DNA of 53,176 bases from a virus (IMGVR_UViG_2737471835_000006), one strand, 5' to 3'. Shown: positions 1 to 19,980, counted from the stretch's first letter. Made by a program: numbers and translations. The notes: a model not told the origin generated them from the letters alone.

Positions 1-1011
1 TCAATCATCATCAATGATCACGGGTATATAATATTTTTTATTTCCGTATGCAAAATAAAGTTTTTCGTCTCCGCTGATGAAGTAAAACGCGGTCTTAGGT
101 TCTGCTCCTGTGGGTAGTTTACTCACTACAGCTGCTGCGGGCGGGAGATGCCCATCATGAAATATTGATCGGGCAATCCTATCAGCCCCAACGTATTGCA
201 GACCATTTGCAGCACCGTAGGGAAAGTCAATTTTTAGGCTAGAGGCGTTGTGATCGTAAATCTGCAAATAAGAATTTTCCTTGCGTTCTATATATGCGTC
301 AGGAAATATTCCTCCGGGACTCCAAAATGCTAATTGACCGTTTTTTTTGACCCCGTCAACTGTAGTGGAATAAATTCGGACAGAACGACCGAAGTATAAA
401 TCAAAGTCAGTATAGCATGATGCTGTATTTGTGTTGCCTGCTGAATTTTTCCCTATCTGGATATTGTTATTAAATGTCGCCGGTGAGTCAAACGTGGCAC
501 CCAACAAAAATGTCGCCAATTTTTTGAATTTGTTTTTTTCCAGAAATTCATTTTCCTTATCGAGTTTTGCGAATTTTGACGAGTCAAGACTGGCGGCTGC
601 CGCTGCTGCTGCTGCTGCGCTGTTCGCGCTGTTAGTTTCAGATGTGTGCGCCGCACTGGCGCTGGCGTCTGCTGCTGCTGCAGCATTTTTCGCAGCCGAT
701 ACTAGCTCTTGAATCTCCGCCAACGCAGCTGGCGTCAGTTCGTCTGCGCTAAAATTAGTCAAATAGTCGTTTAACGTGCCGTCAACACTGTCCGGGTTAA
801 CGTTAATCACGCCGAGATATGCCGCACTAGCAGTGACAACGTAAACTCCGGGATTCATATCAAATTTGTACTCACCCGCCGCGCCTGTTTCTTGCTCTAC
901 AACAGTGGTCATTACTACGCGTGAACTCGTGACCCGTGCTGTTAATACTAACTGAACGCCGACAACGGGCTCGCCGACCCCATTTGCGTATGCACCCGAT
1001 ATTATTGCCAT
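1..1011 (-). CDS. Tail fiber protein with lambda Stf-like N-terminal domain and divergent AT-rich C-terminal domain
   Basis: Complete minus-strand ORF, stop codon at 1-3. N-terminal ~120 aa has the same layout as the N-terminus of the Stf fiber at 49720-53001, followed by an Ala-rich linker; the C-terminal half is AT-rich and unrelated. Confidence 0.5.
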   Translation of the reverse strand: MAIISGAYANGVGEPVVGVQLVLTARVTSSRVVMTTVVEQETGAAGEYKFDMNPGVYVVTASAAYLGVINVNPDSVDGTLNDYLTNFSADELTPAALAEIQELVSAAKNAAAAADASASAAHTSETNSANSAAAAAAAAASLDSSKFAKLDKENEFLEKNKFKKLATFLLGATFDSPATFNNNIQIGKNSAGNTNTASCYTDFDLYFGRSVRIYSTTVDGVKKNGQLAFWSPGGIFPDAYIERKENSYLQIYDHNASSLKIDFPYGAANGLQYVGADRIARSIFHDGHLPPAAAVVSKLPTGAEPKTAFYFISGDEKLYFAYGNKKYYIPVIIDDD

Positions 1012-1016
1012 TTCAT

Positions 1017-2060
1017 TTACTCCAGCGACAGTCGCGCAGAGAATCCGTTTTCAGCCAGCGTCAGCGTCAACGTATTGATTGTCCAGTCTCGGTCCTCCTC
1101 TGTCCCGAACCCTTGTGTTGTGACTTTGCATTCTGCAGTCAGCGATACTAAATCGAGCGTTGCTGGCGTTGTGTACGTCATGGAAAACTCTTTTTTAGCC
1201 GCACCGCCCTTGAGTCCTGGCGCAGCTTCTTTCGCTGCATCAAGCGACGGCTCCACTGCCGGCCACTCGATTACAGGATCGCCGCCACTGCCCGTACGCA
1301 ATTCTTTGATCTGCCCCGTTGCTGTATCGTGATATTTGATCAGATATGTTGGTTCCGCATTTTCGCCACCTCCGCCACTATCGCCGTTTTGTCCATTTCT
1401 CGAATAACCCCAGCTGGAGTTATCACGACGCGTGAGCGTGTAGTGCTGAAGCGGTGCTCCGCTAACAGATTCGCCCGCGCCGCGCGGCAGGAATATCCAG
1501 TACCCGCCCGCGGGTTTACTCACCGCATCGAATCTCGTTGCGAGCCGCGACATCAGGTGCATATCTGACTCGCCGACCTGATCGAGTTGCGTGATAACAT
1601 TGTTTGCAAACCGCTTTGATACGCGTGGTTTTAGCCCGTTATCACTCGCTATTGTCGCAACGATATCGCTGACGGTGACGTCGCTCCATGAGCGCGTCTT
1701 TTTGCTCTGAACTGTCGGAGAGCCCTTTGACGCGTTCATCGGAGCCGCTTTTGCTGTGAAATCAACTACCCGAGGTTCACCGCCACTGCTCGCCCCGTCG
1801 ACGATGTATATACCTTTATCGATTATCTGATTACCAAAACCGAGCCCAATGCTAATTTTCACTCCACGGGCCGGAATTTTCAGAGTTTCAGAAACTATTG
1901 CTACGCGGAGTTCGTCTGTCTGTTTACTGGAGCCGCCATAATCAGTCAGCGTGATATTGATCAGCCCTTTTCTTATTTTATCCGTGATGTTTTTATTATC
2001 AGCAGATATATAAAAATTAGGTTTCCACGCCTCCACGCCAGTATTTACGTAATCACCCAT
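1017..2060 (-). CDS. P2 gpD-like tail protein (late control D family)
   Basis: 347 aa; blocks such as TLTDYGGSSKQTDELRV and SWSDVTVSDIVATIASDNGLKP parallel P2 gpD; last gene of a P2-ordered tail cluster. Confidence 0.65.
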   Translation of the reverse strand: MGDYVNTGVEAWKPNFYISADNKNITDKIRKGLINITLTDYGGSSKQTDELRVAIVSETLKIPARGVKISIGLGFGNQIIDKGIYIVDGASSGGEPRVVDFTAKAAPMNASKGSPTVQSKKTRSWSDVTVSDIVATIASDNGLKPRVSKRFANNVITQLDQVGESDMHLMSRLATRFDAVSKPAGGYWIFLPRGAGESVSGAPLQHYTLTRRDNSSWGYSRNGQNGDSGGGGENAEPTYLIKYHDTATGQIKELRTGSGGDPVIEWPAVEPSLDAAKEAAPGLKGGAAKKEFSMTYTTPATLDLVSLTAECKVTTQGFGTEEDRDWTINTLTLTLAENGFSARLSLE

Positions 2061-2063: not shown

Positions 2064-2276
2064 TCAATCCCATAATTGCGTTTCTTTTTTAACCGGTTCT
2101 GGTTCGATTTCTGGTAAAACAATTTTTTCTCCAGCACGAAACACGGCACACATATCAGTTACGCCGTAATTCGAAACCTGATATAAAACAGTCTCTGTCG
2201 TTTTTGACGCTCTCCCGTAGACCGCAAAGCAGATTTGATCGAGACGGTCACCGTCCCGCGTCGTATATGTAATCAT
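2064..2276 (-). CDS. P2 gpX-like tail protein X
   Basis: 70 aa; MITYTTRDGDRLDQICFAVYGR resembles the gpX N-terminus; sits between gpU-like and gpD-like genes. Confidence 0.55.
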   Translation of the reverse strand: MITYTTRDGDRLDQICFAVYGRASKTTETVLYQVSNYGVTDMCAVFRAGEKIVLPEIEPEPVKKETQLWD

Positions 2277-2513
2277 GATTATGAGGCCTCAAATGGAATT
2301 ATTTGCGTGGGTTATCGCTCTGTATATATGGTTAATGGCGAACCCGTTAATATCCATCATTTTATACGTAATACCGTTAGTAATTGCTCTAATAAGGGGA
2401 CATAAAAGCTGCGCAATGGTCGTTATTCTGAATATATTATTCGGATGGATATTTTTGATGTGGATCATTCTGTTGCTGTGGTCCGCTCTCGGTGATAAAA
2501 AACCGAAAGAAGT

Positions 2514-2942
2514 TCAATCCAGCGAAGCTCCGTAATATTCGAGCGTGAGTGAAAAGTCCTGCGATTTTGGGGTCCCTCCTTTCAGAAAACTGTTTTGCGT
2601 TTCTGTTAACTCCCTGATAACCCAGTACCCCTTCACCTCCCCGGTCCCCAGCACCAGTTGCTGGGGTTCTCCCGAGTTCCCCAGTGCCCGCAAATCTGTT
2701 AACAAGCCAATGCCGCACCCATCAAGGAATAAGGCATTTATTTTCCCATCGATCGTGATTGTGGGGTTCGGTCGTCCGGTTATCTGCAATGCGTCGTTTT
2801 TTCCGAACCGTGTTTGCTGAGCCCAGCGCCAGGCGTCACTACGTTGCAGTTTGTTGTACGCTATTGTTGATATAGCAAAAATGAAATCACCCAGGCCGAG
2901 CATAATGTCCTCAGCACCGTTTGTTGCATCACTCATTGTCAC
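2514..2942 (-). CDS. P2 gpU-like tail protein
   Basis: 142 aa; position immediately after the tape measure gene with 4-nt overlap; residue pattern similar to gpU. Confidence 0.55.
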   Translation of the reverse strand: MTMSDATNGAEDIMLGLGDFIFAISTIAYNKLQRSDAWRWAQQTRFGKNDALQITGRPNPTITIDGKINALFLDGCGIGLLTDLRALGNSGEPQQLVLGTGEVKGYWVIRELTETQNSFLKGGTPKSQDFSLTLEYYGASLD

Positions 2943-4579
2943 CCCGCCGCCGCTGGTTTATCAAACATTGCACCACGGTTGTACGAACTCGCAACTTGTC
3001 TCAGCCCGTCGAGCACACCCGATGCAGCAGCCTGCTGTGTTGATTGTGGATCTGCCGCTCCGATAATATTGATTTCAATTTTATTGTTTTGCTCTGGCGC
3101 TGGAGTTGCGACTGCCTGTCTCAGCGCGTCAATATTCAACGTTGCTGAGTTTTGTGATTCAGGCGTTGAGTCTTTATTTATTAATCCAGTAAACGGGTTA
3201 GCAAACGAGAGCATTGATTCAGCCTGTGATTTTGCACGAGCAAGACGTTCAGGGTGCCGCATATTATCGACGGCTTCGTCGGCTTTTGCTTTTGCTACAT
3301 TATCTGCTGCCAGTCCTGGGTTCGGTGAATATTTACCACCACTATCCATGAATTCCTGATACGCTTTATTATATTCTTCGTTATATACGCGCTGTTCCTC
3401 GTCTGTTTTCTCGTCTGGTATTAACCACTCCAGTTTTTTTACGACTGCCCAAATTATTTTTCCGAATTTAACGCACGCCTCGCCAAAACTGACTATCCCC
3501 TCCCACATTTTTTTCATATTTTCTGGCTTAACCCATTCTTTAATACTATCAACAACCCCCCCTTGATTCTCTTTAAACCAGGATGCCAGCCCGTCTCGCA
3601 TAGCGTCAAACGTCGGCGCGAGTTCCCCTCCGATTTTCCCGAGAGTATCTGCCAGCCCCGATGTGATTGCCCCCCACAGATTCGTGACGGATACGTGCGC
3701 GCGCGCTGCACCCTCAGCCCCTTCTTTCGTTAGCAGGTTTGATTTTTGAGCGTCCGACAGAGTCTGCTCCCAGCTTTTACCAGTCGCCCGCATATAAGTC
3801 ATTATTTTATTAGCTTCCCCCCCCATGAGCTGATCAGCCAGACTCGCCGCCTGTTGATCATCCTTCATTTCAGAGATACGCCGCATAACTTCATTGAACT
3901 GTTTTTCTCGATCCCATTTAGCCATCCGTTTTTTTGTCAGGCCAATTTGAAACAACATGGGGTTCAGGTTTTTTTCGTTTCCAACCTCCCCGATTTTATT
4001 AGTCAACTCCTCCGACAGATCTCCTACGTTTTCGCCATTCAGCCCTGCAGCTTTACCAATATTTTCCCACGCAGCGTATTTTTCGATGCCAACACCGTAG
4101 GACTTCGCCAGACCGAGTTTTTCTGACGTCTCTGCATTCATTGCCAACGCGCCAGCAGCCGCGCCGCCGAGCAGACCCACGGCCCCCAGCGTCCCCCATT
4201 TGATACCCCGTCCCGTGGCCCTCACCGCACCTGCGGCGGCTCGCCCTCCCCATTTTGCAGCACCTTTTGCGCGCCCCGTCCACTTCTCCAGCCGCTGTTT
4301 TTTGGCGAGCTGAGTATTCAGAGCTTCCTGGTCCTGTGTTGTCGCTTTTATCCGACGGTCCAGCTTTTGATACTGAGCAGATAAATCAGAAACGTCTTTA
4401 CCCGCCAGTTTCATTGCTGCGATTTTGTCTTTTAATTTATCCTGGCTTTTCGTTAATTTTCCGACAGTAGACGACGTCTGCCGAATTGCATCGTTGAGTT
4501 CTGTTGTACCGCGCCGAAACGACGGGTCTATTCTCCCCCCAAATACAACCTGCGTTTTAAAGTTTTGAGAAATAGCCAT
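2939..4579 (-). CDS. Tail tape measure protein
   Basis: 546 aa; coiled-coil N-terminal region, Gly/Ala-rich putative membrane segment (GTLGAVGLLGGAAAGALA), position between tail chaperone and gpU. Confidence 0.7.
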   Translation of the reverse strand: MAISQNFKTQVVFGGRIDPSFRRGTTELNDAIRQTSSTVGKLTKSQDKLKDKIAAMKLAGKDVSDLSAQYQKLDRRIKATTQDQEALNTQLAKKQRLEKWTGRAKGAAKWGGRAAAGAVRATGRGIKWGTLGAVGLLGGAAAGALAMNAETSEKLGLAKSYGVGIEKYAAWENIGKAAGLNGENVGDLSEELTNKIGEVGNEKNLNPMLFQIGLTKKRMAKWDREKQFNEVMRRISEMKDDQQAASLADQLMGGEANKIMTYMRATGKSWEQTLSDAQKSNLLTKEGAEGAARAHVSVTNLWGAITSGLADTLGKIGGELAPTFDAMRDGLASWFKENQGGVVDSIKEWVKPENMKKMWEGIVSFGEACVKFGKIIWAVVKKLEWLIPDEKTDEEQRVYNEEYNKAYQEFMDSGGKYSPNPGLAADNVAKAKADEAVDNMRHPERLARAKSQAESMLSFANPFTGLINKDSTPESQNSATLNIDALRQAVATPAPEQNNKIEINIIGAADPQSTQQAAASGVLDGLRQVASSYNRGAMFDKPAAAG

Positions 4580-4687
4580 CGGTTTTCATGACCTCGTTTA
4601 CATAGAAATTAAAAACCCGATACGGCAGGTCCATTTGCGTATCGGGCGGGATGGCAAGTTTTTTCGCAATAAACGGAATCAGAATTA

Positions 4688-4969
4688 CTATATCTGATGT
4701 CGGTCTTTCGGGTGCTTTACCAGTTCGTTAAACGCGGCCTCCAGTTGATCGTAATCGCACGCGGGGAGCGCATATAAATCCTCTCTCTCCAGATTTGCCA
4801 GGCGCGCCAGCATTGTCGCTGTCCGCTCTTCAAGACCGCTTTTATCGTTACTGAACATAATGCGGTCGCGTAATTTTGGTTCGCGAATAGTAATTGTATC
4901 GCAGCTCTCGCCCTTAATAATAAATGGTCGAGAGAGCGTAATAGTCATACTGTCTAATAATGATTCCAT
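4688..4969 (-). CDS. Tail assembly chaperone (P2 gpE position)
   Basis: 93 aa acidic protein between tail tube and tape measure genes; no obvious slippery heptamer for an E' frameshift was seen. Confidence 0.4.
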   Translation of the reverse strand: MESLLDSMTITLSRPFIIKGESCDTITIREPKLRDRIMFSNDKSGLEERTATMLARLANLEREDLYALPACDYDQLEAAFNELVKHPKDRHQI

Positions 4970-4981: not shown

Positions 4982-5494
4982 TTAATATACATGAAGGATT
5001 CGAGCGACGCCCGCAAGAACATCAACACCATTGATAACGCGTTTCATTTTTGCAGGATGAATTTCGTAAATAATTCGTCCATTTTGAACTCGTTTATAAT
5101 AGCTCGGCGCAATCGTTACTGATTGCCCCACTGACGATTTAGAATCAGTCCCCTGGGCATCATCAGTGATTGCTGTAATAAGCCCCTCATAGGTATCAAT
5201 GCGCTCAAAGTTTATTCCGTAAGAGTCTGTGTACGCACTACGAATTTCAAACCGCGTCTTCACTCCCGGTATTAACCCGAAATAGCTCATAACAGCAGAA
5301 TCAGAACCTGAAACTTTAAAACTGGCTGACATTTTCTCCATCCCCCCATCCAGAGTGATAGCTGTATCCATCGCGCCTGTTTTAAACTCGTCTTCGATTA
5401 TTTTCATATCTACTGGAGTATATTCAGTACAATTTAAAACCCGTTCGCCCTGCACGAATAGCGCAAACGCGCGGTAAGCGTTGCTGTCTGACAT
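4982..5494 (-). CDS. Contractile tail tube protein (P2 FII-like)
   Basis: 170 aa directly downstream of the sheath gene; C-terminal VINGVDVLAGVARIL resembles the tube C-terminus. Confidence 0.7.
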   Translation of the reverse strand: MSDSNAYRAFALFVQGERVLNCTEYTPVDMKIIEDEFKTGAMDTAITLDGGMEKMSASFKVSGSDSAVMSYFGLIPGVKTRFEIRSAYTDSYGINFERIDTYEGLITAITDDAQGTDSKSSVGQSVTIAPSYYKRVQNGRIIYEIHPAKMKRVINGVDVLAGVARILHVY

Positions 5495-5511: not shown

Positions 5512-7005
5512 TCAGGCTGTTTCTTTAAAAAGGGAGGCCAGTGCCTCAACTGTATAGTCATTATTAATACAGTACATTAACGTAATTGTTTGTGCCGGAG
5601 ATTTCGGACCAAAATCAACATTAATATAAAGATTGCCAGCGGCCAGACTTTCTTTTGTATTCAGCTCACCGTCTAACCACGCACGCCCTCCGTTAATCGC
5701 ACCCTGCTCCTCTAATTTGTGCAGATATGCGTTTATCGACTCGACAACGTCTGTTCCGAGATGCAGGTCTATCGGGCGATCAATAAAATCTGTCATCATT
5801 GCCCGGGCTATAGAATCTTCAATTACGTCAGCTGTCCGACGAACGCATTCAAACGACCATTGTGGATCCAGACTGCACAGATAGTTACCCCAGTGCCGGA
5901 ATCCATCGTAGCGAATAATGGTGCTGACCTGGCTGGCGTTCAGTAGGTTCGCTGTGCAGTTTGTCTCACCAATAATAAAATCGTCGATTTGTTCAAGCCC
6001 TGTTATTCCATAAATATTTTGATTCGACTTACTCCACCAAAACCCTTTTTCATTATCAATTCTGGCTCGTAAACCAGCGGCGATAGCTGAATATGGACGC
6101 GACAGATCACTGAGATCGCCAGCTGAAAACACACGCGGGCGTAGTATTTCCATGCGCGCGCTATATTTATGGCGGCGGTTAACGACGTCTGCGGGCGATG
6201 CCGTGCGTGGAGAATCAATATAGCCGACTCCACGTAATTTATTTGTGACTACCTCCAGCGCGGCAGCGACGTCGTCATTAGCACTGTAATCAGGTGCAAT
6301 CAAAATTCGTGGAGTCACCTGGTTTATCTGTCCCGATGTTAACATAGCGTTAATGCCGTTGATTACGTTCTCACGCTCTTTTGTCGCGTCTGTGTTTTCG
6401 TCTACGCGAACAACAACAATTAGCGCATCTGTCTGATTTAAAATATCAGTGATGGCTGCGGGGAGAGTGCCTGCTGCACCCAGGAGCGCCGCTTTTTTCT
6501 GACTACCTGCAATTAGTGTGGGTATGTTGACTGGAAATGGAGCGTCAGAACCGCCCGTCAGGCTCGTGACGGGCATCTGATAAACAATTCCATCATTTTT
6601 ACTGGCCTCATCCAACGCTACAAAAATATAATCCTCCGCGTTCCGTCCCTCATTGTGAGTCAGAACGTCTTGTGACAGCACCTCTGGCGTTGTTGTACTA
6701 TCTGTTCCGAGCGTTAATTTTATTGTCCCGTCCGGTAACGTGCTATATCCGTATTTAATTCCAGAAATGCCCTTCTTAATAATTTCAACTGCAAATTTAT
6801 TTCCGTAACTCCCTGAATAAACCGGGAGAAATGTCACCACATTATCTGACAAGGGTGACCCCCATGTTAATGAAGCTCTTCCTCCCAGCCCAACATCCGG
6901 TGCAGTACCAACAATCCCGATAACCGAAATATCTACCGCGCTGATCTCTTTTGTGCCGTCGTCGTATTCAAGCGTGCGGGGGCCGTGCAAAAAATTAGTG
7001 CTCAT
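5512..7005 (-). CDS. Contractile tail sheath protein (P2 FI-like)
   Basis: 497 aa; size, composition and position upstream of the tube gene typical of myovirus sheath proteins. Confidence 0.8.
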   Translation of the reverse strand: MSTNFLHGPRTLEYDDGTKEISAVDISVIGIVGTAPDVGLGGRASLTWGSPLSDNVVTFLPVYSGSYGNKFAVEIIKKGISGIKYGYSTLPDGTIKLTLGTDSTTTPEVLSQDVLTHNEGRNAEDYIFVALDEASKNDGIVYQMPVTSLTGGSDAPFPVNIPTLIAGSQKKAALLGAAGTLPAAITDILNQTDALIVVVRVDENTDATKERENVINGINAMLTSGQINQVTPRILIAPDYSANDDVAAALEVVTNKLRGVGYIDSPRTASPADVVNRRHKYSARMEILRPRVFSAGDLSDLSRPYSAIAAGLRARIDNEKGFWWSKSNQNIYGITGLEQIDDFIIGETNCTANLLNASQVSTIIRYDGFRHWGNYLCSLDPQWSFECVRRTADVIEDSIARAMMTDFIDRPIDLHLGTDVVESINAYLHKLEEQGAINGGRAWLDGELNTKESLAAGNLYINVDFGPKSPAQTITLMYCINNDYTVEALASLFKETA

Positions 7006-12182: not shown

Positions 12183-12213
12183 GGTTCCCCCTTAAGTGGG
12201 ACCGCGGTCCCAC

Positions 12214-13028: not shown

Positions 13029-14063
13029 TTACGCGATTTTTACGACGACGAATGCATCAGCGTCCGTGAGCACCATTGCTGGCGCGGATTGAGTCATTGT
13101 CTGCGTCACTGCCGGATCACCGGTCGTCGTCCAGACTTTTGGATAGCGCGTGGCCTCGCAGATCCCCTCTTTCAGCGCGTCTTCGTCCTGAATCGCGCCA
13201 TACGTGCGGAGTCCGCGATTTTTTGTGTTGCCCAGGATCATCGTGTTATCCGGCATATAACGCGTTTCAATGCCTGTTACAGGGTCAATATATTGCCCCT
13301 TGTAAACGAACAGCGCCGTGTCGCCGTAATAGCCCTTAAAGCTAACGACATCGCCCAGGTTTTTCAGCGCGACTTCGAGCTGGCTGTTTGAGCCACGGCG
13401 CGTATCCAGTGCCGTCCAGAATTTTTTAAAGCGCTTCAACTGCTTCCAGGCTTTACCGTCCATGATGATCACGTTAACAGCACCGGAGGCGAGGTCTGCA
13501 TAGGATTCGATATCGTCGCTCGGGTCATACGTTTCCGCGTCCTGAGTAGACCAGGCTGTCGAACCGGACTGAGTGACGTTATTCGTCGCGCTGCGGCTCA
13601 TATCGATCTCATAGGTCTCGATATTGCTGCCGGAGACTGTGTATTTACCGTACAGAACCGCCTGCACTGCCTGGAACTCTTCGAGCTGACTGATGCTGAG
13701 TTCCTCGTCGAGCAGGTTCTGCATGATGATTTTTGCACGACGTTCGACCGGCGTTTCCGGCTGACCAATTTGCTCACCGGCGGCGCGCTTAATGCTCATA
13801 TTCGGATTGATCGTGTGTTTCGGCTTCGTGTAACCCGGTTTGAAATAGTTCGTTGAATAGCCGCGAGTGCGGTCAACTTTGCCGGTGATCATCGGCGCGC
13901 AATATACCGCCATATTGACTTTGCCCGGGATTTTATCCAGAAAAACCTCTTCGCTCGTAAACGTGTAGGTCTCACGGAAAAACAATCTTAAAAACAACGG
14001 ATTGAACTTAAATACCTGCTGCGTTGCGGTAATCAGTTCTGACGTAGTAAACGAATCGCTCAT
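13029..14063 (-). CDS. Major capsid protein, lambda gpE family
   Basis: 344 aa; FKFNPLFLRLFFRETYTF, GNTKNRGLRTYGAIQD and TTGDPA blocks match lambda gpE closely. Confidence 0.9.
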   Translation of the reverse strand: MSDSFTTSELITATQQVFKFNPLFLRLFFRETYTFTSEEVFLDKIPGKVNMAVYCAPMITGKVDRTRGYSTNYFKPGYTKPKHTINPNMSIKRAAGEQIGQPETPVERRAKIIMQNLLDEELSISQLEEFQAVQAVLYGKYTVSGSNIETYEIDMSRSATNNVTQSGSTAWSTQDAETYDPSDDIESYADLASGAVNVIIMDGKAWKQLKRFKKFWTALDTRRGSNSQLEVALKNLGDVVSFKGYYGDTALFVYKGQYIDPVTGIETRYMPDNTMILGNTKNRGLRTYGAIQDEDALKEGICEATRYPKVWTTTGDPAVTQTMTQSAPAMVLTDADAFVVVKIA

Positions 14064-14083
14064 TTATATATCCTGTATAAAAA

Positions 14084-14124: not shown

Positions 14125-14454
14125 TCAGCCAACGCTGACTGGCGTACCAGCAAACGCTGATTTGCGTTTAGCGACGTCAGTAACCGTACCCCAGTTAATC
14201 GCCGTATAACGAAACGATCCTGATTTGTAGTACGAGCAGTCTGCAGAACTGGAGCCTGTATTAACTGCTGTGGCTGTGAGACCAACCGCCTTACCAATTG
14301 AGCCGTCCCAGACTTTAAACGTCCCGGCAGTAGCGTCGAGCATAATCGGTGTCAGCCGGGGTACGTTGATCCCGCCCTGAAAATGACCGACGGTCGTCAC
14401 AACAAGATCGGGTCCCAGAATAAAATCATCCGGGCTATACGTTTCTGTGGTCAT
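14125..14454 (-). CDS. Head decoration protein, lambda gpD family
   Basis: 109 aa; PIMLDATAGTFKVWDG and KRKSAFAGTPVSV match lambda gpD. Confidence 0.85.
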   Translation of the reverse strand: MTTETYSPDDFILGPDLVVTTVGHFQGGINVPRLTPIMLDATAGTFKVWDGSIGKAVGLTATAVNTGSSSADCSYYKSGSFRYTAINWGTVTDVAKRKSAFAGTPVSVG

Positions 14455-15764
14455 TATTCATCCCCTAAAATTGAACGCCCTGCCGCGACCAGCATCGAGA
14501 CGTTTGCGGTTGTTCCTGTTGCCGTGGTGCTGCCGGCATCCTGAATAGTTTCCGGTGATTCAGTGCTCATGAGTGTATCGAGCGCCGTTTCTGTCCGCGC
14601 CTGCGCTGTTTGCGGTGCTGCCGCGAGGACAGCCTGCGCCTGCCCGACCGTCATCCCGGGGACGGCAGCGAGCGCTTTTGCCTGCGCCTCGCGCCCAACA
14701 GCTTCGGGACAGTTGATGATGGCCATCACGCGTGCCAGTTCGCTCGATGCGGCGTCCGCGCGAATCTGCTCCGCGTTGGACTCAACCGGCGCGACCGTAG
14801 TCGTAGCCGCGGTTTGTTCTGTGGTCGTGGTCTCCGCCGTGGTTTCTGTTGTACCTGGCATAAATCGCTCCGTTTTTGGTTTCAGTGCGTCGGCCATCAC
14901 TGCGATAGCGTCCGCGTAATTAACGAGTTGATCAGCGAGACCAGATTTAATCGCGTCCGCGCCGATAAATACTGCGGCCTCTGTGGCCAGCACCCTGGAT
15001 TTTTTCAGCCCGGTATAATCCGAGACTTTTTGCGCGAACTGCTCGCGTGTGCTGTTAATACTCAGCTGGAATTCGTCGCGAACGTCGTCGGGCAGCTGGG
15101 AATACGGGTTCCCGTCGACTTTGTGCGCGCCGGCGTAAATCAGCGTCACGTCAACGCCGGCAATCTCCAGCGCCTTTTCGACGCAGCGGTGAGCCATCAG
15201 GACACCGATTGAACCAACCGTGCCGGTCTGCGTTATCAGCCGGCGCGAACACGCTGACGCCAGCAAATATGCGGCGCTGCAGGCCGTATCGCTGGCCAGC
15301 GCCCACACCGGTTTTTGCTCTCGCGCCCGGGCGATTAAATCAGCGGTATCAAACGCGCCGGCGACCTCACCGCCAGGGGAATCAATATCCAGCAGGATCC
15401 CCTTAACATCGGGATCAGAAATCGCCTGCTGCAGGCGTTTTGCGATTCCGTCGTAACCACTCATCCCGCTGACCGGATTGATATAACCCAATTTATGAAC
15501 CAGCGTCCCGGTAACCGGCAGAACGGCTATACCACGCTCCACGCGATACGATTTCTGGCGTGTTCGCTCGCTGCTGTCCCACCCCATCGCGAGCGCGTTC
15601 ATTTCGTCGCTGTTCATTACCTCTCCTGACGCTGTATCAATCAGTCGCCCGGTACCGAACCGGTCGCTCAGCGCAGAAAAAAATACCCGCGCGTAGGCGG
15701 GCTCCAGCAAAAGCGGTTGATTGAACGCCCTAGCGGCGAGGTGCGGAAAATTGTTCCACGGCAT
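14454..15764 (-). CDS. Head maturation protease / scaffold, lambda gpC (S49 peptidase) family
   Basis: 436 aa; SppA-type peptidase core with Ala/Thr-rich C-terminal scaffold-like region; directly after portal. Confidence 0.85.
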   Translation of the reverse strand: MPWNNFPHLAARAFNQPLLLEPAYARVFFSALSDRFGTGRLIDTASGEVMNSDEMNALAMGWDSSERTRQKSYRVERGIAVLPVTGTLVHKLGYINPVSGMSGYDGIAKRLQQAISDPDVKGILLDIDSPGGEVAGAFDTADLIARAREQKPVWALASDTACSAAYLLASACSRRLITQTGTVGSIGVLMAHRCVEKALEIAGVDVTLIYAGAHKVDGNPYSQLPDDVRDEFQLSINSTREQFAQKVSDYTGLKKSRVLATEAAVFIGADAIKSGLADQLVNYADAIAVMADALKPKTERFMPGTTETTAETTTTEQTAATTTVAPVESNAEQIRADAASSELARVMAIINCPEAVGREAQAKALAAVPGMTVGQAQAVLAAAPQTAQARTETALDTLMSTESPETIQDAGSTTATGTTANVSMLVAAGRSILGDE

Positions 15765-17335
15765 CAGTTACCTCCCCAGCCGTTATCGTTGGTATTTGAG
15801 GGGTGAGATACTGACCAGGATGGTTCGCTCAGCTCCATTTCGCGCCGGCGCTGAATTTCGTATTCCTGTTGTTCCATGACCTCCTCGTAGTCCTGCCCCT
15901 GCAGCGCGAGTTCGTTCTGATACGTGCTGAGGCCAGTCGTGATGCGCATGGCGCTCTCCTGAACCTCTTTCAGCCCATCAATCGCCATGCGACCAGCGCC
16001 GATCCAGAGCGCGTTCGTCCAGGAGTTCCGCGCTTCATAAAACGACCGGACCGCTGAGCGTGGCAGGGTGATAACTCCGCGCGCCAGAGCTTCCTCAAAC
16101 CAGCAGCAGAACATCAGTGACGCCTGTCGTGCGGCGATAAAACGTCGACGGCCCATGAAAAAACGCCAGCTCACGTTTGCGCTGGCCCGCGCGCTGGAGT
16201 AACTGACCTGGCTGTAGTCCCGACTCAGTTCCTCATATGACGCGCCGACGCCAGCGGCAACGTAACGCAGGAGTGATTTTTCCAGCGAACTGAAACCAGC
16301 ATCAGCATTCTGAGCGGTCTGTAAACTGAGTTTGTCGCCGGGATGCAGGTGGGGAACTTTCACACCACCGAGCTTGATATTTGCGCCGTTGTAGTACGTC
16401 ACGTAACTCTGAATAAACGAACTCAGCGGGTTCGAGTCGATATCAGTACCCGCGCCGGCGATATATTCAAACGCCTGCTGGCTGTCGAGCTCTGATTCGA
16501 TTGTGGCGGCGTACATCGCCTTCACGATGGCGCTCTGCAGCTGTGTTTGCTGCAGCGTATCGAGCATTTTCAGCCGCTCCATTACGCTGTAAAAAATGTT
16601 ATCTCCGCGGGTTTGTCCGTCCTCGAGCGGCTCGAATATGTGAATGAATGCGTGTCTGCCGCTGCTGAGTTTTGCTGGTATGCGCCGGCATTTACCAACT
16701 CCGCCGAGGGGATAGGTATCCTCGGCTATCCAGTACCCAACCGCGGCCCCGTTTTTATCGATATCAACACCGGCGCGGCGAAATTGAGTGTCAGCTGCGT
16801 AGCCAGGATTTCGAATTCGTTTCGGTGAGACCATTTTGAATCGCGTCCGAAAAACGCTGCCGGCGCAGCTCTCCCACACCGGTTGTACGCAGGTTTCACC
16901 GTTGAACGCGTGAGTGGCCACGCCTTCGCGAATCATCATTGTGAACGTCCGTTTCCGCTCGATATCAATCGTGCAGTGAGGGTCCTCGGCGTATTCAGTC
17001 CACGCGACCTCAACGTCACGCGCCAGCGCCCTGGCGTCCTCGCGAGATATCCCGATGTAACGCCAGTTAGGGCGATAACTCAACTTAAACAGATTGCCGA
17101 CGATATGATCCTGATGCAGCTGCACGGCGTTCGACGCGACGCCGTTATTACGAACGAGATCGTCTGCTCGCGCGTTACCGCGATAAAAATTAGGCAGCAG
17201 TGCCGCATCGGCGCTTTGCTGTGGTGCATTCCAGTCAATCAGCTGGCCACCGAAGCCGGGACCGCCGCCGTTATACCCCGCGTAACGGCGTAGTGGCGTT
17301 TTACCGTCAGGCCCGAGCAACTGCTGAGCAGTCAT
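15764..17335 (-). CDS. Portal protein, lambda gpB family
   Basis: 523 aa; long collinear blocks with lambda gpB (LLPNFYRGNARADDLVRNNG, KRTFTMMIREGV, YSVMERLKMLDTLQ, IDGLKEVQE). Confidence 0.9.
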   Translation of the reverse strand: MTAQQLLGPDGKTPLRRYAGYNGGGPGFGGQLIDWNAPQQSADAALLPNFYRGNARADDLVRNNGVASNAVQLHQDHIVGNLFKLSYRPNWRYIGISREDARALARDVEVAWTEYAEDPHCTIDIERKRTFTMMIREGVATHAFNGETCVQPVWESCAGSVFRTRFKMVSPKRIRNPGYAADTQFRRAGVDIDKNGAAVGYWIAEDTYPLGGVGKCRRIPAKLSSGRHAFIHIFEPLEDGQTRGDNIFYSVMERLKMLDTLQQTQLQSAIVKAMYAATIESELDSQQAFEYIAGAGTDIDSNPLSSFIQSYVTYYNGANIKLGGVKVPHLHPGDKLSLQTAQNADAGFSSLEKSLLRYVAAGVGASYEELSRDYSQVSYSSARASANVSWRFFMGRRRFIAARQASLMFCCWFEEALARGVITLPRSAVRSFYEARNSWTNALWIGAGRMAIDGLKEVQESAMRITTGLSTYQNELALQGQDYEEVMEQQEYEIQRRREMELSEPSWSVSHPSNTNDNGWGGN

Positions 17336-17565
17336 AATCGAACTCCCACGGGACGGCGGCGTCCCGTACTCAGACCGAGCTGTGATTTCAGCTCGATAAT
17401 GTACGTTCGGAGCTGTTCAATACTCGCCTGTGAGTATTGATAGCTCCGGTTATTTCCCGCTGAATCGCCGTGAGACAGCGATACAGTCGATCTACCCGTT
17501 AATAATTTGTGCAGGGCAATTTCAGCTTCCAGCAGCCGTTCTGTTAAAACCTCGCGCGACATCAT
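17332..17565 (-). CDS. Head-tail joining protein, lambda gpW family
   Basis: 77 aa; ALHKLLTGRSTVSL ... LRTYIIELKSQLG parallels lambda W; 4-nt overlaps with terminase and portal. Confidence 0.8.
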   Translation of the reverse strand: MMSREVLTERLLEAEIALHKLLTGRSTVSLSHGDSAGNNRSYQYSQASIEQLRTYIIELKSQLGLSTGRRRPVGVRL

Positions 17566-19526
17566 GAGCTCCCTCCGAGCATTCTGGCCATCTCCTCGAG
17601 AGACAGTTTGTTTTGTGATTTTTTCCGTTGCTCAGCGAGCGTCTCGAGATTGAGCTGGAAACGAATTTTACTGATACGTAGCGCTGCCAGCGCGTATACC
17701 CAGCAGTCGAGCGCCTCATTTCGCCGGCCCTGGTTGTCCCAGCGATAAACGACGCGACCGTTAATCAGTTTCGGGATCAGAACTTCAGAGACGAGCTGTT
17801 TTGCCTCTGTCGTGCCGAATATTTCGTCGTCGTTGGGAAAATGAATCGCACTTGGTGTCGCCGATTTAGAATCGGGTTCCAGCGGCAGGCGCATTGCGAG
17901 CAAATCTTTTGCCGTATCAGTACCGATTAACGACAAATAGACTTTATTCGCGTTACGTGTACGCGGCATATTTACGACTGGCTGACCGTATGAACTCGCA
18001 CCTTTAATTGGAATGACCCACAGCGGACCGAGTTTCAGCGAGCGGTTATAAACGACCTGCGCATCTATACCACCGGTATCCCACGCCCAGCGACTGACGC
18101 CGATTGTGGTCCCGTCGCTGCGCCGGTATTGTTTGCGAATCACTCCGTCGACGCGCTGCAGCGTGTCCTCCTCGTCGTAGCGACCGAGGACGATTGTTTT
18201 ATCAATCAGCCAGCACTCCTCCTCCACTCCCCAGCCCCACACGTAACACTCGTAGCGACCGGACGTCTGAGAGTCGATGCCGCCGGTCAGATAAACAACA
18301 CCGTCAGGAACCTGGCTGGCGTATTTTTCCCGGCGATTAACCAGAATATCGTGCTCCAGCTGCTCGCTGGCTACGTCACTCCAGAGTTCGCCGAGCGTCG
18401 TGTTATGAAACGTCTTTTCTTTGAGCGGATCGCCCTTCGCTTTCAGCCACTCGCTGACAATCTCGCCCCAGCCGTCGAGATTCAGCGAATACATGGCGTT
18501 TATCACGATCGCCGCGTGTTTCGGCGCGCGAACGACACCACCGTCGTGATCAAAAAAACGAATACCGTCCCGCGTCCAGGTGCAGTCCTCTGCTATCCAG
18601 CGCCCCGCGAGCTCCATTTTTTCGAGATCGCGATAGTAAAAATGCTCAGGACAGTGGCAGCACTGGTAATACGCGGACGACGATTTCGCCTCATTTGTCT
18701 GCAGGCTATTATCCCATTTGAGGCCATATTCGATGCCGTCGAAACCAAATACCAGGACCTGCTCCTCGCCACAATGCGGACATTTCAGGTAAAAACGAAA
18801 CGTCAGGTCAGCGGCATCCTCCAGCATTTCAATATGACTTTTTCCGGTGACGGTTGGCGTCGAGCCGAAAATCGCCTTCGGGTACGCTGCCCCTTTAATT
18901 CGAACGAGCGCCAGTTCGATGGGCGAGCCCTCGCCTTTGCCTTTTTTGGCAACTTCCAGCGGCCAGCCGTCAACTTCGTCACCCTCGACAACCTGTTTCG
19001 TTAGTCGCCGGAAATTTCCTGGTGCACTCGCGCCGCGAAAATCAATAATCGCGCCGCTCATTTCTTTACGCTGGAGATTGTTACGCTCGTTGCTTTTATC
19101 CCAGTCGGGGAAAATTTTCTGAATCACCGGCATTTCGGCGATAGCGGGGTCAACCTCGTCGGCAACAAATCCATCCGATTCGTCATCGATAGGCTGATAG
19201 ACCACGGCACTACGTTTTTTGTGCTCAGCGAAATAGAGCAGCGCCGCGACGAGTATTTTTGTATAACCGAGACGAGCTGATTTGCGAACAGACACGATTT
19301 TTATCGCGTCGTTAGTCATCATATTGAGCATCACTACCTGGACCGGCTGAGTCGTCCAGTGGCCAGCGATGTGGCTGGAGCCCTCAGGGAGATAAAAATA
19401 TTTATCAGCCCACTCAACCCCCGTCATCGGTATCGTCACGCGCAAGGGATTCAACCCTGTCGAGATCGCGTTCGATATCGCTGACATCGTAATCGCTGAA
19501 GTCGACTCGTATGTCTGCCAGTTCAT
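17562..19526 (-). CDS. Terminase large subunit, lambda gpA family
   Basis: 654 aa; VEWADKYFYLP, CPHCGEEQ, KTFHNTTLGELW and VIPIKGAS blocks match lambda gpA; start may be a downstream Met, reducing the overlap with the small subunit. Confidence 0.9.
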   Translation of the reverse strand: MNWQTYESTSAITMSAISNAISTGLNPLRVTIPMTGVEWADKYFYLPEGSSHIAGHWTTQPVQVVMLNMMTNDAIKIVSVRKSARLGYTKILVAALLYFAEHKKRSAVVYQPIDDESDGFVADEVDPAIAEMPVIQKIFPDWDKSNERNNLQRKEMSGAIIDFRGASAPGNFRRLTKQVVEGDEVDGWPLEVAKKGKGEGSPIELALVRIKGAAYPKAIFGSTPTVTGKSHIEMLEDAADLTFRFYLKCPHCGEEQVLVFGFDGIEYGLKWDNSLQTNEAKSSSAYYQCCHCPEHFYYRDLEKMELAGRWIAEDCTWTRDGIRFFDHDGGVVRAPKHAAIVINAMYSLNLDGWGEIVSEWLKAKGDPLKEKTFHNTTLGELWSDVASEQLEHDILVNRREKYASQVPDGVVYLTGGIDSQTSGRYECYVWGWGVEEECWLIDKTIVLGRYDEEDTLQRVDGVIRKQYRRSDGTTIGVSRWAWDTGGIDAQVVYNRSLKLGPLWVIPIKGASSYGQPVVNMPRTRNANKVYLSLIGTDTAKDLLAMRLPLEPDSKSATPSAIHFPNDDEIFGTTEAKQLVSEVLIPKLINGRVVYRWDNQGRRNEALDCWVYALAALRISKIRFQLNLETLAEQRKKSQNKLSLEEMARMLGGSS

Positions 19527-19980
19527 TCAGGGCTATCGCCAGCTCCTCTCGTAAAACACTGCTCGCCTCCTGCGGCATTTCAGGCCACACCTTTTTCAAC
19601 CGTGGTGGCCACGATTCGACACGGGTACGTAATTCAACTGCGACGCGAGATACAGCGACGCTGATTAATTCAATTGGCGCGTAGCGTTTAGCAAGAATGC
19701 GGCGTTTCACGCGAGCCATCAGGATTCGCTCCTGTCGTTCCTCATTTTTCAGCCACTGCTCGCGATTTTTTTCGGGAGAATTGTCCCCCACTTCCGGTTC
19801 GTCAGTACCAACTGTGTCGCGTCTATTACTCCGGAGATAATGAATATAGAAATGGCGCCAGGCGTCTAGCTCCCAATCACCACGTCCTTGTGGGACTGGT
19901 GCTCCCGGAAGTTTTGCGAGATCGCGCAGACGACGATCTGATAGCAGTAAATGTGCTGCGACCTCAGCCTGACTTGCCAT
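19414..19980 (-). CDS. Terminase small subunit (Nu1-position, N-terminal HTH)
   Basis: 188 aa immediately upstream of and overlapping the large subunit; N-terminal helix-turn-helix-like segment, acidic C-terminus. Confidence 0.55.
   Translation of the reverse strand: MASQAEVAAHLLLSDRRLRDLAKLPGAPVPQGRGDWELDAWRHFYIHYLRSNRRDTVGTDEPEVGDNSPEKNREQWLKNEERQERILMARVKRRILAKRYAPIELISVAVSRVAVELRTRVESWPPRLKKVWPEMPQEASSVLREELAIALNELADIRVDFSDYDVSDIERDLDRVESLARDDTDDGG

What the first reader, a model, noticed from the sequence alone, without database searches (positions are those of the whole stretch)
1..19980. Mosaic virion module: lambda-type head genes joined to a P2-type contractile tail cluster
Terminase, portal, protease, decoration and capsid proteins match lambda A, W, B, C, D, E closely, but the downstream tail genes follow the P2 order V-W-J-I-H-(G)-FI-FII-E-T-U-X-D with sheath and tube proteins. 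No lambda Z/U/V/G/T/H/M/L/K/I/J homologues are present. The join falls after the FII-like connector gene.
Basis: partly seen in the sequence, partly recalled or inferred. Interest (0 to 1): 0.4.

Follow-up and report, generated by a model that had tools for sequence, protein, structure and literature searches.

The report
Lambdoid prophage with contractile tail
This is the particle-building gene block of a common E. coli prophage that pairs a lambda-style head with a P2/pyocin-style contractile tail; the pairing is real, but it is old, stably inherited and an already described type of phage, so it is ordinary.

Summary
Window 1-19980 (minus strand) encodes Nu1-A-W-B-C-D-E-FI-FII of the lambda families (33-63% identity to lambda where BLAST detects a match). 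These are followed by a contractile-tail cluster of P2 families (26-41% to P2). Three details are wrong. A distant gpZ-family gene (11502-12182) and a tail terminator with the gpU/pyocin-collar fold (10969-11505) are present. The gene order matches the R2-pyocin locus PA0615-PA0628, not P2. "Closely" overstates the similarity to lambda. The join after the FII-like gene is supported by a GC change point near 12270 and by a switch of nearest relatives there. It is not a recent breakpoint: a 93%-identical ST131-type copy aligns unbroken across it, 442 of 5426 complete E. coli genomes carry at least 80% of the 20-kb head-plus-tail block, and a relative with 31-77% protein identity has the same order and GC step. 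Lambda/P2 chimeric phages have been reported before (Wolbachia WO, Xylella XfP1/XfP2). The block belongs to a ~44.4 kb lambdoid prophage between 77-bp tRNA-Ser att repeats, with intact virion genes. Verdict: new member of a known kind, low interest.

The parts
19414..19980 (-). Small terminase subunit, lambda Nu1 class
   Evidence: phrog_57 at E 1e-38; lambda Nu1 hits the same family at 1e-76. No Pfam hit and no significant BLAST match to Nu1.
17562..19526 (-). Large terminase, lambda gpA type (RefSeq start at 19439)
   Evidence: GpA_ATPase 3e-47 and GpA_nuclease 4e-63; 43% identity to lambda A over 645 aa.
17332..17565 (-). gpW head-tail adaptor
   Evidence: Pfam gpW 2e-15; 33% identity to lambda W.
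15764..17335 (-). Portal protein, lambda gpB family
   Evidence: Phage_portal_2 4e-90; 63% identity to lambda B.
14454..15764 (-). Head protease/scaffold, lambda gpC (S49) type
   Evidence: Peptidase_S49 3e-38; 55% identity to lambda C.
14125..14454 (-). Head decoration protein, gpD type
   Evidence: HDPD 7e-8; 40% identity to lambda D.
13029..14063 (-). Major capsid protein, gpE type
   Evidence: Phage_cap_E 7e-59; 57% identity to lambda E. The next-best sequenced phages outside this lineage are all at about 57%.
12591..12998 (-). DNA-packaging protein FI
   Evidence: Packaging_FI 7e-10; phrog_92 6e-31; 41% identity to lambda FI over the N-terminal 51 aa only.
12214..12594 (-). FII-like head-closure (Hc1) connector; last gene of the head-side block
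   Evidence: Phage_attach 3e-9; phrog_82 2e-23, the same family as lambda FII. No BLAST match to lambda FII. GC3 of 0.56 groups it with the head genes.
12193..12216 (.). 24-nt perfect palindrome in the FII-like/Z-like spacer, at the module seam
   Evidence: It is the only perfect palindrome with arms of 8 nt or more in the 53-kb window; 0.12 expected per 20 kb for arms of 9 or more. RNA fold z-score -3.96. No T-run follows it on the coding strand. The stem is kept in the ST131-type copies. Function unknown.
11502..12182 (-). Tail completion / Neck1 protein, distant lambda gpZ family; first gene of the tail-side block
10969..11505 (-). Tail terminator (collar) of the contractile tail
10086..11003 (-). 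Baseplate spike, gpV type (RefSeq start at 10898)
   Evidence: Phage_base_V 4e-12; 36% identity to P2 V; PDB match to P2 gpV 3qr8 at 1e-15.
9742..10131 (-). gpW/gp25 sheath initiator (RefSeq start at 10083)
   Evidence: GPW_gp25 4e-15; 37% identity to P2 W; PA0617 at 2e-21.
8825..9745 (-). Baseplate wedge gpJ
   Evidence: Baseplate_J 5e-21; 41% identity to P2 J; PA0618 at 4e-58.
8196..8828 (-). Baseplate wedge gpI
   Evidence: Tail_P2_I 1e-37; 34% identity to P2 I; PA0619 at 1e-17.
7250..8212 (-). Tail fibre, gpH-type N-terminal domain with a swapped C-terminal part
   Evidence: Phage_tail_fib 1e-31; 34% identity to the P2 H N-terminus. The N-terminal 184 aa are 83% identical to the 705R4 fibre and the remainder is unrelated. 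Only 13 genomes carry this fibre variant.
7011..7244 (-). Small fibre-associated protein in the gpG position; not a gpG homologue
   Evidence: 46% identity to the N-terminal part of the 129-aa protein that follows the fibre in 705R4. Weak PHROG tail-fibre hits. No Pfam hit.
5512..7005 (-). Tail sheath (gpFI type) with about 100-150 extra N-terminal residues
   Evidence: Phage_sheath_1 and sheath_1C; 36% identity to P2 FI over residues 157-492; PA0622 at 6e-49; 47-48% identity to Chris1/yong2 over the full length.
4982..5494 (-). Tail tube (gpFII type)
   Evidence: Phage_tube 3e-22; PA0623 at 4e-14.
4557..4969 (-). Tail assembly chaperone gpE (4688-4969) with a putative -1 frameshift extension E' (open -1 frame 4727-4557; A-AAG slip site at 4720-4715)
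   Evidence: Phage_TAC_7 2e-16. The -1 frame is open for 56 codons and overlaps the tape-measure start. The E' part has no family hit, so the frameshift is inferred.
2939..4579 (-). Tape measure protein, assigned by position and size
   Evidence: It lies between the chaperone and gpU. phrog_3654 (unknown function) at 1e-248. 33-34% identity to the protein at the same position in Chris1/yong2. No hit to P2 T.
2514..2942 (-). gpU tube initiator
   Evidence: Phage_P2_GpU 1e-32; 36% identity to P2 U; PA0626 at 3e-12.
2275..2535 (+). Antisense cargo gene: superinfection immunity protein (not a virion part)
   Evidence: Imm_superinfect 6e-11. Absent from the ST131-type copy.
2064..2276 (-). gpX (LysM 'glue') between U and D
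   Evidence: Phage_tail_X 7e-15; 39% identity to P2 X; PA0627 at 5e-4.
1017..2060 (-). gpD baseplate hub
   Evidence: phrog_52 1e-94; 26% identity to P2 D over 370 aa, E 4e-24; pyocin R2 hub chain 6u5h_C at 8e-21. Pfam Phage_GPD is hit only below its cutoff.
1..1011 (-). Extra fibre-like gene with a lambda Stf-type N-terminal domain; role unclear
   Evidence: phage_tail_N 6e-23; 35% identity to the lambda Stf N-terminus. Only the N-terminal 40% of the PHROG fibre profiles is matched. Absent from the ST131-type copy.

Best explanation
Window 1-19980 is the complete late (virion) gene block of a ~44.4 kb temperate lambdoid prophage integrated at a tRNA-Ser gene.

Shown:
- It encodes a lambda-type packaging and head set, Nu1-A-W-B-C-D-E-FI-FII.
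- Then come a gpZ-family tail-completion protein and a contractile-type tail terminator.
- Then comes a P2/R-pyocin-type baseplate, fibre, sheath, tube, chaperone, tape measure and hub.

Inferred mechanism:
- Heads assemble and fill by the lambda pathway. The portal, the C protease/scaffold and E form the procapsid. The Nu1/A terminase packages DNA with FI. D stabilises the shell. W and the FII-like protein finish the portal vertex.
- Tails assemble separately as in P2 and R-pyocins. The D/U/X/V hub and the W/J/I wedges form the baseplate. The tape measure, with E and E', sets the length. Tube and sheath then polymerise.
- The 178-aa terminator caps the tail, with the Z-like protein. The FII-like ring of the head docks on that cap.
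- The whole block is probably read as one Q-antiterminated late transcript, not from P2-style Ogr-activated promoters.

Evolution. The head-side and tail-side blocks have different ancestries and meet between the FII-like and Z-like genes. That join is old and is inherited as a unit.
For: Family assignments.

Identities to lambda and P2.

Terminator fold.

gpZ-family link.

Prophage frame. 77-bp direct repeats lie at window 43952-44028 and 349-425 bp beyond position 1. Integrase, CI/Cro-like regulators, a DnaB-type helicase, Q and a lysis cassette lie upstream in lambdoid order.

Transcription. There is no Ogr homologue. Promoter-like sites number 13 against 22 expected, and terminator-like sites 28 against 22.5.

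Seam. The GC change point is near 12270, and the nearest relative switches between the FII-like and Z-like genes.

Age and stability.
- One 93% blastn alignment block runs from 20652 to 7685 against the ST131-type copy, with 92-97% identity on both sides of 12200.
- 442 of the 461 matching complete E. coli genomes carry at least 80% of the block.
- Enterobacteriaceae bacterium G50 has the same order at 31-77% identity and the same GC step, 60.1% against 52.5%.
- No sequenced phage outside the lineage has a capsid protein above about 58% identity.

The same lambda/P2 chimeric layout, with a 'minor tail protein Z' and a hypothetical gene before baseplate V, is published for Wolbachia WO phages.

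Activity in nature: 28 CRISPR spacers of urinary E. coli match the related record ON470624.
Against: - No particle, induction or proteomic data for this prophage were found.
- The tape measure and the E' frameshift product rest on position alone. Pfam gives no E' family, and there is no similarity to the yong2 ORF at the same place.
- No lambda-like cos site was detected.
- The fibre is short (320 aa) and has no recognisable assembly chaperone.
- The most common sublineage, the ST131-type copy, has a truncated gpD, so part of the family may be defective.
- Docking of the FII-like ring on the terminator is inferred from solved necks of other phages, not tested here.
Confidence: 0.85

Rival explanations
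1. A recent recombinant: a lambda-like siphovirus and a P2-like myovirus crossed over near 12200 within E. coli, so the seam is a young breakpoint that comparative alignment can map.
For: A sharp GC change point near 12270, 54.8% against 47.3%. The only long perfect palindrome of the window sits exactly in the seam.
Against: - Identities to lambda (33-63%) and P2 (26-41%) are far too low for recent parents.
- The ST131-type copy aligns without a break across the seam at 92-97% identity.
- A relative at 31-77% protein identity has the same join and the same GC step.
- WO phages share the Z-like, hypothetical, V junction.
- No phage in the collection shares the capsid gene at between 58% and 98% identity.
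Confidence: 0.04
2. A defective or domesticated element: the block no longer makes infectious phage and persists as a cryptic prophage, or as a tail-only bacteriocin (tailocin) producer.
For: - The tail cluster is collinear with the R2 pyocin locus.
- The common ST131-type copy has a truncated hub gene D and lacks the terminal fibre gene.
- The deposited 'phage' records include the host gene yecA.
- The fibre here is short, with no recognisable chaperone.
- The RefSeq copy has one frameshifted early gene.
Against: - In this window every head, neck and tail gene is an intact ORF of about the expected length, apart from a shorter fibre and tape measure.
- The att repeats and the integrase gene are intact.
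- The lambdoid regulatory and lysis genes are present.
- Many CRISPR spacers target the lineage, which implies incoming DNA.
Confidence: 0.1
3. Two separate elements lying side by side, a lambda-like remnant next to a P2-like prophage or tailocin, rather than the virion genes of one phage.
For: Tandem prophages do occur at this very site: a second, lambda-type prophage end abuts the integrase side.
Against: - There is one pair of att repeats and one integrase for the whole 44.4 kb.
- No regulatory, integrase or att sequence lies between the blocks. The gap at the seam is 31 nt and holds a ribosome-binding site.
- No P2 head, Ogr, R or S homologues are present.
- The two blocks are co-inherited in 442 genomes and in distant relatives.
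Confidence: 0.01

Closest known systems
ST131-type E. coli prophage next to yecA, and the GenBank records Escherichia phage vB_EcoM-705R4, -720R5, -569R10 and -783R5 (ON470624 etc.)
   Same: Same lineage. About 91-93% nucleotide identity over most of the block. Head and neck proteins are mostly 95-99% identical (FI 78%). The gene order is the same.
   Different: - Different integration site.
- The sheath is only 77% identical, and the middle of the tape measure 76-81%.
- The fibre C-terminal part is unrelated.
- No superinfection-immunity gene and no terminal Stf-like gene.
- gpD is truncated.
Wolbachia phage WO (WORiC, WOVitA1, WOCauB); also Xylella XfP1/XfP2 as cited there
   Same: A published lambda/P2 chimera. 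It has a lambda-like terminase, portal and minor capsid C joined to a P2-like baseplate and tail. A 'minor tail protein Z' and a hypothetical gene lie just before baseplate V, and U-X-D are adjacent.
   Different: Very distant in sequence: sheath 40%, TerL 25%. The modules are separated by other genes. The host is an intracellular alphaproteobacterium. No lambdoid Q/CI backbone was seen in the part examined.
R2-type pyocin of Pseudomonas aeruginosa (PA0615-PA0628)
   Same: The best solved homologues of the W, J, I, sheath, tube, U, X and D proteins are PA0617, PA0618, PA0619, PA0622, PA0623, PA0626, PA0627 and the R2 hub chain 6u5h_C (PA0628 by my recollection). The terminator matches collar PA0615 by fold. 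The locus numbers rise in the same order as the window genes.
   Different: The pyocin has no head, no FII or Z neck proteins and no DNA. Sequence identity is low (about 20% for the collar). I did not verify the positions of PA0616, PA0620, PA0621, PA0624 and PA0625 here.
Bacteriophage P2 (Peduoviridae)
   Same: The V, W, J, I, H (N-terminal part), FI, FII, U, X and D families are shared at 26-41% identity, and the tail is contractile.
   Different: No P2 head genes Q, P, O, N, M or L. No R or S tail-completion genes. No Ogr. X lies between U and D instead of next to L. The E and T proteins are not detectable by BLAST.
Bacteriophage lambda
   Same: Nu1-A-W-B-C-D-E-FI-FII-Z in the same order and families (33-63% identity where detectable). 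A hairpin plus T-run lies between D and E, as in lambda. The rest of the prophage is lambdoid, with int, CI/Cro, Q and lysis genes.
   Different: No V, G, T, H, M, L, K, I or J. The terminator shares only the gpU fold. No lambda-like cos sequence was detected.
Citrobacter phage Chris1 and Hafnia phage yong2
   Same: They are the nearest sequenced phages for the whole neck and tail module from Z-like to D, at 29-54% identity. They also have an A-W-B type terminase and portal.
   Different: The capsid shell genes are a ClpP-type protease/capsid fusion, not C-D-E-FI. The W-J-I-H block lies after D instead of before the sheath. Chris1 shows no GC step.

Membership tests
Lambda-type head and packaging module | gpA-type large terminase with ATPase and nuclease domains, plus a Nu1-class small subunit | tested here: met
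   GpA_ATPase 3e-47 and GpA_nuclease 4e-63; phrog_57 shared with Nu1.
Lambda-type head and packaging module | W, lambda-family portal B, S49 protease C, decoration D, capsid E, FI and FII, all present and in lambda order | tested here: met
   All seven Pfam families are above their cutoffs and in the lambda order. Identities to lambda are 33-63% for W, B, C, D and E.
Lambda-type head and packaging module | cos-type packaging site with lambda-like cosN/cosB upstream of Nu1 | tested here: inconclusive
   Local alignment with lambda bases 1-200 scores 20, against a shuffle mean of 18.4. The ends can only be found experimentally.
Peduoviridae (P2-like phages) | P2-type capsid and packaging genes Q, P, O, N, M and L | tested here: not met
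   tblastn of all six against the window gives no hit at E of 0.1 or better.
Peduoviridae (P2-like phages) | Ogr/Delta-type late activator and gpR/gpS tail-completion genes | tested here: not met
   No hit for Ogr, R or S. The equivalent proteins here belong to other PHROG families: phrog_27 and phrog_1072, against phrog_26 and phrog_65 for P2.
P2/R-pyocin-type contractile tail module | Spike V, gp25-like W, wedges J and I, sheath, tube, U, X and hub D | tested here: met
   Pfam hits, BLASTP to P2 and phmmer to R2-pyocin chains. D passes by PHROG, BLAST and PDB search but falls below the Pfam cutoff.
P2/R-pyocin-type contractile tail module | Chaperone pair E/E' made by a -1 frameshift, followed by the tape measure | tested here: inconclusive
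   E is met (Phage_TAC_7). An open -1 frame with an A-AAG site exists, but E' has no family support. The tape measure is assigned by position and its Chris1/yong2 homologues only.
Tail terminator proteins (lambda gpU / Mu / pyocin collar fold) | The terminator fold, encoded between the neck genes and the tail genes | tested here: met
Lambda gpZ family (Minor_tail_Z / PHROG 27) | Profile membership together with lambda gpZ | tested here: met
   phrog_27 at E 3e-41 over the full length; lambda gpZ hits the same family at 3e-69. There is also a transitive link through P0056.
Lambda gpZ family (Minor_tail_Z / PHROG 27) | Direct match of this protein to Pfam Minor_tail_Z or to the lambda gpZ sequence | tested here: not met
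Lambdoid temperate phages | Lambda-like order: int/xis, repressor/cro, replication, Q antiterminator, lysis, then virion genes | tested here: met
   RefSeq annotation of the identical copy. The integrase ORF and att core are present in the window.
Lambdoid temperate phages | Ability to recombine productively with lambda; inducibility | not testable with these tools
   This needs genetics and induction experiments.

The most novel reading that the evidence does not exclude
The FII-like connector, the Z-like protein and the 178-aa terminator act as an adaptor set that lets a lambda-type head dock on a contractile tail. The conserved 24-nt palindrome in the 31-nt spacer at the head/tail seam is then a functional boundary element. 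It could be an RNA processing or stability site that sets the head-to-tail protein ratio, or a preferred crossover point for exchanging modules among this phage group.
Probability: 0.12. Interest if true: 0.4.

Novelty: new member of a known kind. Interest (0 to 1): 0.17.

Why it matters
The gain is mostly in annotation and context.

- Four 'hypothetical' or vaguely named genes in a prophage found in about 8.5% of complete E. coli genomes, ST131 strains among them, now have roles: small terminase, gpZ-class tail completion protein, tail terminator and probable tape measure.
- The work shows that the lambda-head/contractile-tail combination in E. coli is an old, stable lineage and not a fresh recombinant.
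- The lineage is reported to be targeted by many E. coli CRISPR spacers, so it is probably an active but unstudied temperate coliphage group.
- It could serve as a tractable E. coli model for how a lambda-type connector mates with a contractile-tail terminator.

None of this changes current understanding of phage mosaicism.

Tried and rejected
1. Lambda-like cos upstream of the Nu1-like gene: only a chance-level alignment.
2. Family support for the E' frameshift product: none in Pfam, and no similarity to the yong2 ORF at the same position. Two of three substitutions against 705R4 are synonymous in the -1 frame, which is too few to count.
4. I first assumed the whole window equals strain JX2. 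That is wrong beyond the att core at 43952-44028, where the window carries a second prophage. This explains why ARAGORN found no tRNA.
5. Reading the GC step as a sign of recent acquisition: rejected, because a relative at about 50% protein identity keeps the same step, although Chris1 lacks it.
6. Rfam scan of 1-24000: nothing found.
7. Literature on the vB_EcoM-...R records and on lambda/P2 hybrids in E. coli: only a CRISPR-spacer paper turned up. The serU search returned 'serum' matches.
8. The pattern-seeded scan of species genomes for the terminator gave only two loci. The exhaustive HMM search gave 247 representative clusters, but without genomic context.
9. Whether the terminal Stf-like gene is a recent copy of the neighbouring prophage's stf: no, identity is only 36% and confined to the N-terminal domain.

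Full report
What the region is.

All sizeable ORFs of window 1-19980 that form a continuous array lie on the minus strand. The 20 kb is 100% identical to a chromosomal segment of E. coli JX2 and several other strains. It is found in 461 of 5426 complete E. coli genomes, and 442 of them carry at least 80% of it. Four GenBank 'phage' records, vB_EcoM-705R4 and relatives, match at about 91%.

The RefSeq annotation of the identical copy shows what lies upstream: integrase, a DUF4224 protein, CI/Cro-type regulators, a replicative helicase, antiterminator Q, two holins and an endolysin-like gene. This is the lambdoid order.

A 77-bp direct repeat that includes the 3' part of a tRNA-Ser gene lies at window 43952-44028, and again 349-425 bp beyond window position 1. 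The prophage is therefore about 44.4 kb, and the finding covers its whole late region.

Checking the head claim.

Pfam places the proteins in the families GpA_ATPase plus GpA_nuclease, gpW, lambda-family portal, Peptidase_S49, HDPD, Phage_cap_E, Packaging_FI and Phage_attach, all above their cutoffs and in the lambda order.

Direct BLASTP against the lambda proteins gives A 43%, W 33%, B 63%, C 55%, D 40%, E 57%, and FI 41% over the first 51 residues only. There is no BLAST match for the FII-like protein or for the 188-aa protein at 19414-19980. PHROGs puts that 188-aa protein in the same small-terminase family as lambda Nu1, and the FII-like protein in the same head-closure family as lambda FII.

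So the head block is Nu1-A-W-B-C-D-E-FI-FII of the lambda kind, but at moderate identity, not 'closely'. Outside its own lineage, the closest capsid proteins among 50,697 phage records are the true lambda group at about 57%, with nothing in between.

Checking the tail claim.

Pfam finds Phage_base_V, GPW_gp25, Baseplate_J, Tail_P2_I, the P2 fibre N-terminal domain, both sheath domains, Phage_tube, the E-type chaperone, Phage_P2_GpU and Phage_tail_X. Phage_GPD is hit below its cutoff.

Identities to P2 are V 36%, W 37%, J 41%, I 34%, H 34% (N-terminal part), FI 36%, FII 30%, U 36%, X 39% and D 26%. E and T are not detectable by BLAST.

A single phmmer search of the concatenated tail proteins against all PDB chains gives R2-pyocin components as the best solved homologues. 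These are PA0618 (4e-58), PA0622 (6e-49), PA0617 (2e-21), the hub chain 6u5h_C (8e-21), PA0619 (1e-17), PA0623 (4e-14), PA0626 (3e-12) and PA0627 (5e-4). P2 gpV is the best match for the spike.

Six-frame tblastn of all lambda tail proteins finds nothing in 1-19980 for V, G, T, H, M, L, K, I or J. Likewise nothing is found for the P2 head genes Q, P, O, N, M and L, the tail-completion genes R and S, or Ogr.

First, the order V-W-J-I-H-FI-FII-E-T-U-X-D is not the P2 order. In P2, X lies beside L in the head/lysis operon, and R, S and orf30 precede V. The order here follows the rising locus numbers of the R2-pyocin proteins.

Second, two genes between the FII-like gene and V were left unexplained, and they bear on 'no lambda Z/U homologues'.
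- The 226-aa protein (11502-12182) hits PHROG 27, 'tail completion or Neck1', at 3e-41 over its full length. Lambda gpZ hits the same family at 3e-69.
- Three of 29 collected homologues reach Pfam Minor_tail_Z, best 2e-12.
- Lambda Z matches family member P0056 at 24 bits, and P0056 is 38% identical to the window protein at E 8e-29.
- I therefore call it a distant gpZ-family member, on profile and transitive evidence.

Where the seam is, and how old.

The best single GC change point in 1-19980 is at about 12270. GC is 47.3% below it and 54.8% above it, with a log-likelihood ratio of 53. The ten best positions all fall between 12040 and 12340.

Independently, the nearest relative changes at the same place. 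The head proteins A and B are 43% and 63% identical to lambda but only 28% and 22% to Citrobacter phage Chris1. W, C, D, E, FI and FII have no detectable counterpart in Chris1 or Hafnia phage yong2. In contrast, the Z-like protein, the terminator, V, W, J, I, H, sheath, tube, E, tape measure, U, X and D are all 29-54% identical to Chris1/yong2, which is above their identity to P2.

Against the ST131-type copy, one blastn alignment block at 93% runs from 20652 to 7685, with 92-97% identity in every 500-base bin on both sides of 12200. The real mosaic boundaries within the lineage lie elsewhere:
- the fibre C-terminal part and the small gene after it;
- the N-terminal half of the sheath (73%);
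- the middle of the tape measure (76-81%);
- the inserted immunity gene;
- the end after D.

A much more distant relative in Enterobacteriaceae bacterium G50 (31-77% protein identity) has the same order, from A through FII, the Z-like gene and the terminator into the contractile tail genes. It also has the same GC step, 60.1% against 52.5%. Chris1, which has a different capsid shell (a ClpP-type protease/capsid fusion), shows no step.

The join and its compositional contrast are therefore old and stably inherited.

How it most likely works.

Shown: the gene families, their order, the intact ORFs, the terminator fold and the prophage frame.

Inferred from what is established for lambda, P2 and the R2 pyocin:
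- Heads are built and filled by the lambda route and finished by W and the FII-like protein.
- Tails are built on a D/U/X/V hub with W/J/I wedges. Their length is set by the 546-aa tape measure with the E chaperone, and they are capped by the 178-aa terminator with the Z-like protein.
- Heads and tails then join through the FII-like ring and the terminator ring.
- The FII-like protein is the head gene most diverged from lambda, which fits a changed partner.

A 56-codon open -1 frame overlaps the end of E and the start of the tape measure gene, with an A-AAG site at 4720-4715. This fits the conserved E/E' frameshift, but the extension has no family support.

There is no Ogr homologue. Promoter-like sites are fewer than chance (13 against 22) and terminator-like sites are near chance (28 against 22.5). 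Q lies upstream. I therefore infer one Q-dependent late transcript rather than P2's three activator-dependent operons.

Is it defective?

In this window nothing in the virion block suggests decay. Apart from a shorter fibre and tape measure, gene lengths are close to those of their lambda, P2 or pyocin counterparts. The att repeats and the integrase gene are intact.

Open points are the short fibre (320 aa) with no recognisable chaperone and the lack of any experimental record. The ST131-type sublineage has a truncated gpD and lacks the last gene. The deposited 'phage' records include the host gene yecA, so those records are not proof of viable virions. On the other hand, 28 CRISPR spacers of urinary E. 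coli match ON470624, which implies that DNA of this lineage enters cells in nature.

Comparison with what is known.

Lambda/P2 chimeric phages are in the literature. The WORiC paper credits Masui et al. with identifying lambda-like terminase, portal and minor capsid genes and P2-like baseplate genes in WO phages. It cites Xylella XfP1 and XfP2 as further lambda/P2 chimeras. Its gene table lists 'minor tail protein Z' and a hypothetical gene directly before baseplate V, and U-X-D together.

The sheath's nearest relatives are Chris1, yong2, Vibrio Valp1, VHML/VP585 and WO rather than peduoviruses. The terminator family has 247 representative clusters in public protein data.

This element is not a member of the Peduoviridae, because the defining head, Ogr and R/S genes were tested and are absent. 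It is not a lambda-type siphovirus either. It is a lambdoid temperate phage of the known lambda-head/contractile-tail kind.

I found no paper in the searchable library describing the E. coli lineage itself. I therefore rate it a new member of a known kind, of low interest.

Noticed in passing
window 44029-53176: This is not host DNA as in strain JX2. It is the right end of a second, lambda-type prophage lying in tandem at the same tRNA-Ser att core. It carries lom (84% to lambda, cut by the window end), stf (1093 aa, 86% over the N-terminal part) and tfa (95%). No complete E. coli genome covers 80% or more of 41000-53176.
   Followed up: partly
window 45408-48852 (minus strand): Two large low-GC (about 36%) genes after tfa of the neighbouring prophage are OloB (E 3e-207) and OloA (E 3e-110), PADLOC's models for the two-gene Olokun anti-phage defence system. 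Neither has a significant Pfam domain.
   Followed up: partly
window 44164-45117 (plus strand): An IS4-family DDE transposase ORF lies between the att core and the Olokun genes.
   Followed up: no
window 43952-44028: ARAGORN finds no tRNA in the whole window. Only the 77-bp att core, which holds the 3' part of tRNA-Ser, is present at the junction of the two prophages. The intact tRNA presumably lies beyond the second prophage, outside the window.
   Followed up: partly
window 2275-2535 (plus strand): A superinfection-immunity gene (Imm_superinfect, 86 aa) is inserted antisense between the tail genes U and X. It is present in the E. whittamii copy (93%) but absent from the ST131-type copy. It has no PADLOC hit.
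   Followed up: partly
window 1-1011 (minus strand): The last prophage gene has a lambda Stf-type N-terminal domain (35% to lambda, 36% to the neighbour's Stf) on a phage with a P2-type baseplate and no gpJ. It matches only the N-terminal 40% of the fibre profiles and has no chaperone gene after it. It could be a second fibre or a remnant.
   Followed up: partly
window 12193-12216: A 24-nt perfect palindrome, TAAGTGGGACCGCGGTCCCACTTA, spans the stop codon of the FII-like gene in the 31-nt spacer at the head/tail seam. It is the only one of its size in the window, and its stem is conserved in ST131-type copies. It is not followed by a T-run on the coding strand.
   Followed up: partly
window 14083-14102 (minus strand): A GC-rich hairpin followed by a T-run lies between the decoration gene and the capsid gene. 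Lambda has a hairpin plus T-run at the same position, between D and E (J02459 about 6098-6122).
   Followed up: no
L009 (NZ_CP103672, ST131) 22448-23221; L002 (ON470624) 24345-25389 and 26447-27112: The common ST131-type copy sits next to yecA, has a truncated or split gpD hub gene and lacks the terminal fibre gene. The 'complete genome' phage record vB_EcoM-705R4 contains the host gene yecA, so it looks like prophage-derived sequence rather than a demonstrated virion genome.
   Followed up: partly
related record ON470624 (literature): A 2025 survey reports 28 CRISPR spacers from urinary E. coli matching this phage lineage, far more than for any other phage target named in the passage read (PMC12736100).
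   Followed up: no
window 5512-7005 and 2939-4579: The sheath has about 100-150 extra N-terminal residues compared with P2 FI and PA0622, and that part is the most divergent between E. coli sublineages. The tape measure is 546 aa against 815 aa in P2, which predicts a shorter tail.
   Followed up: no
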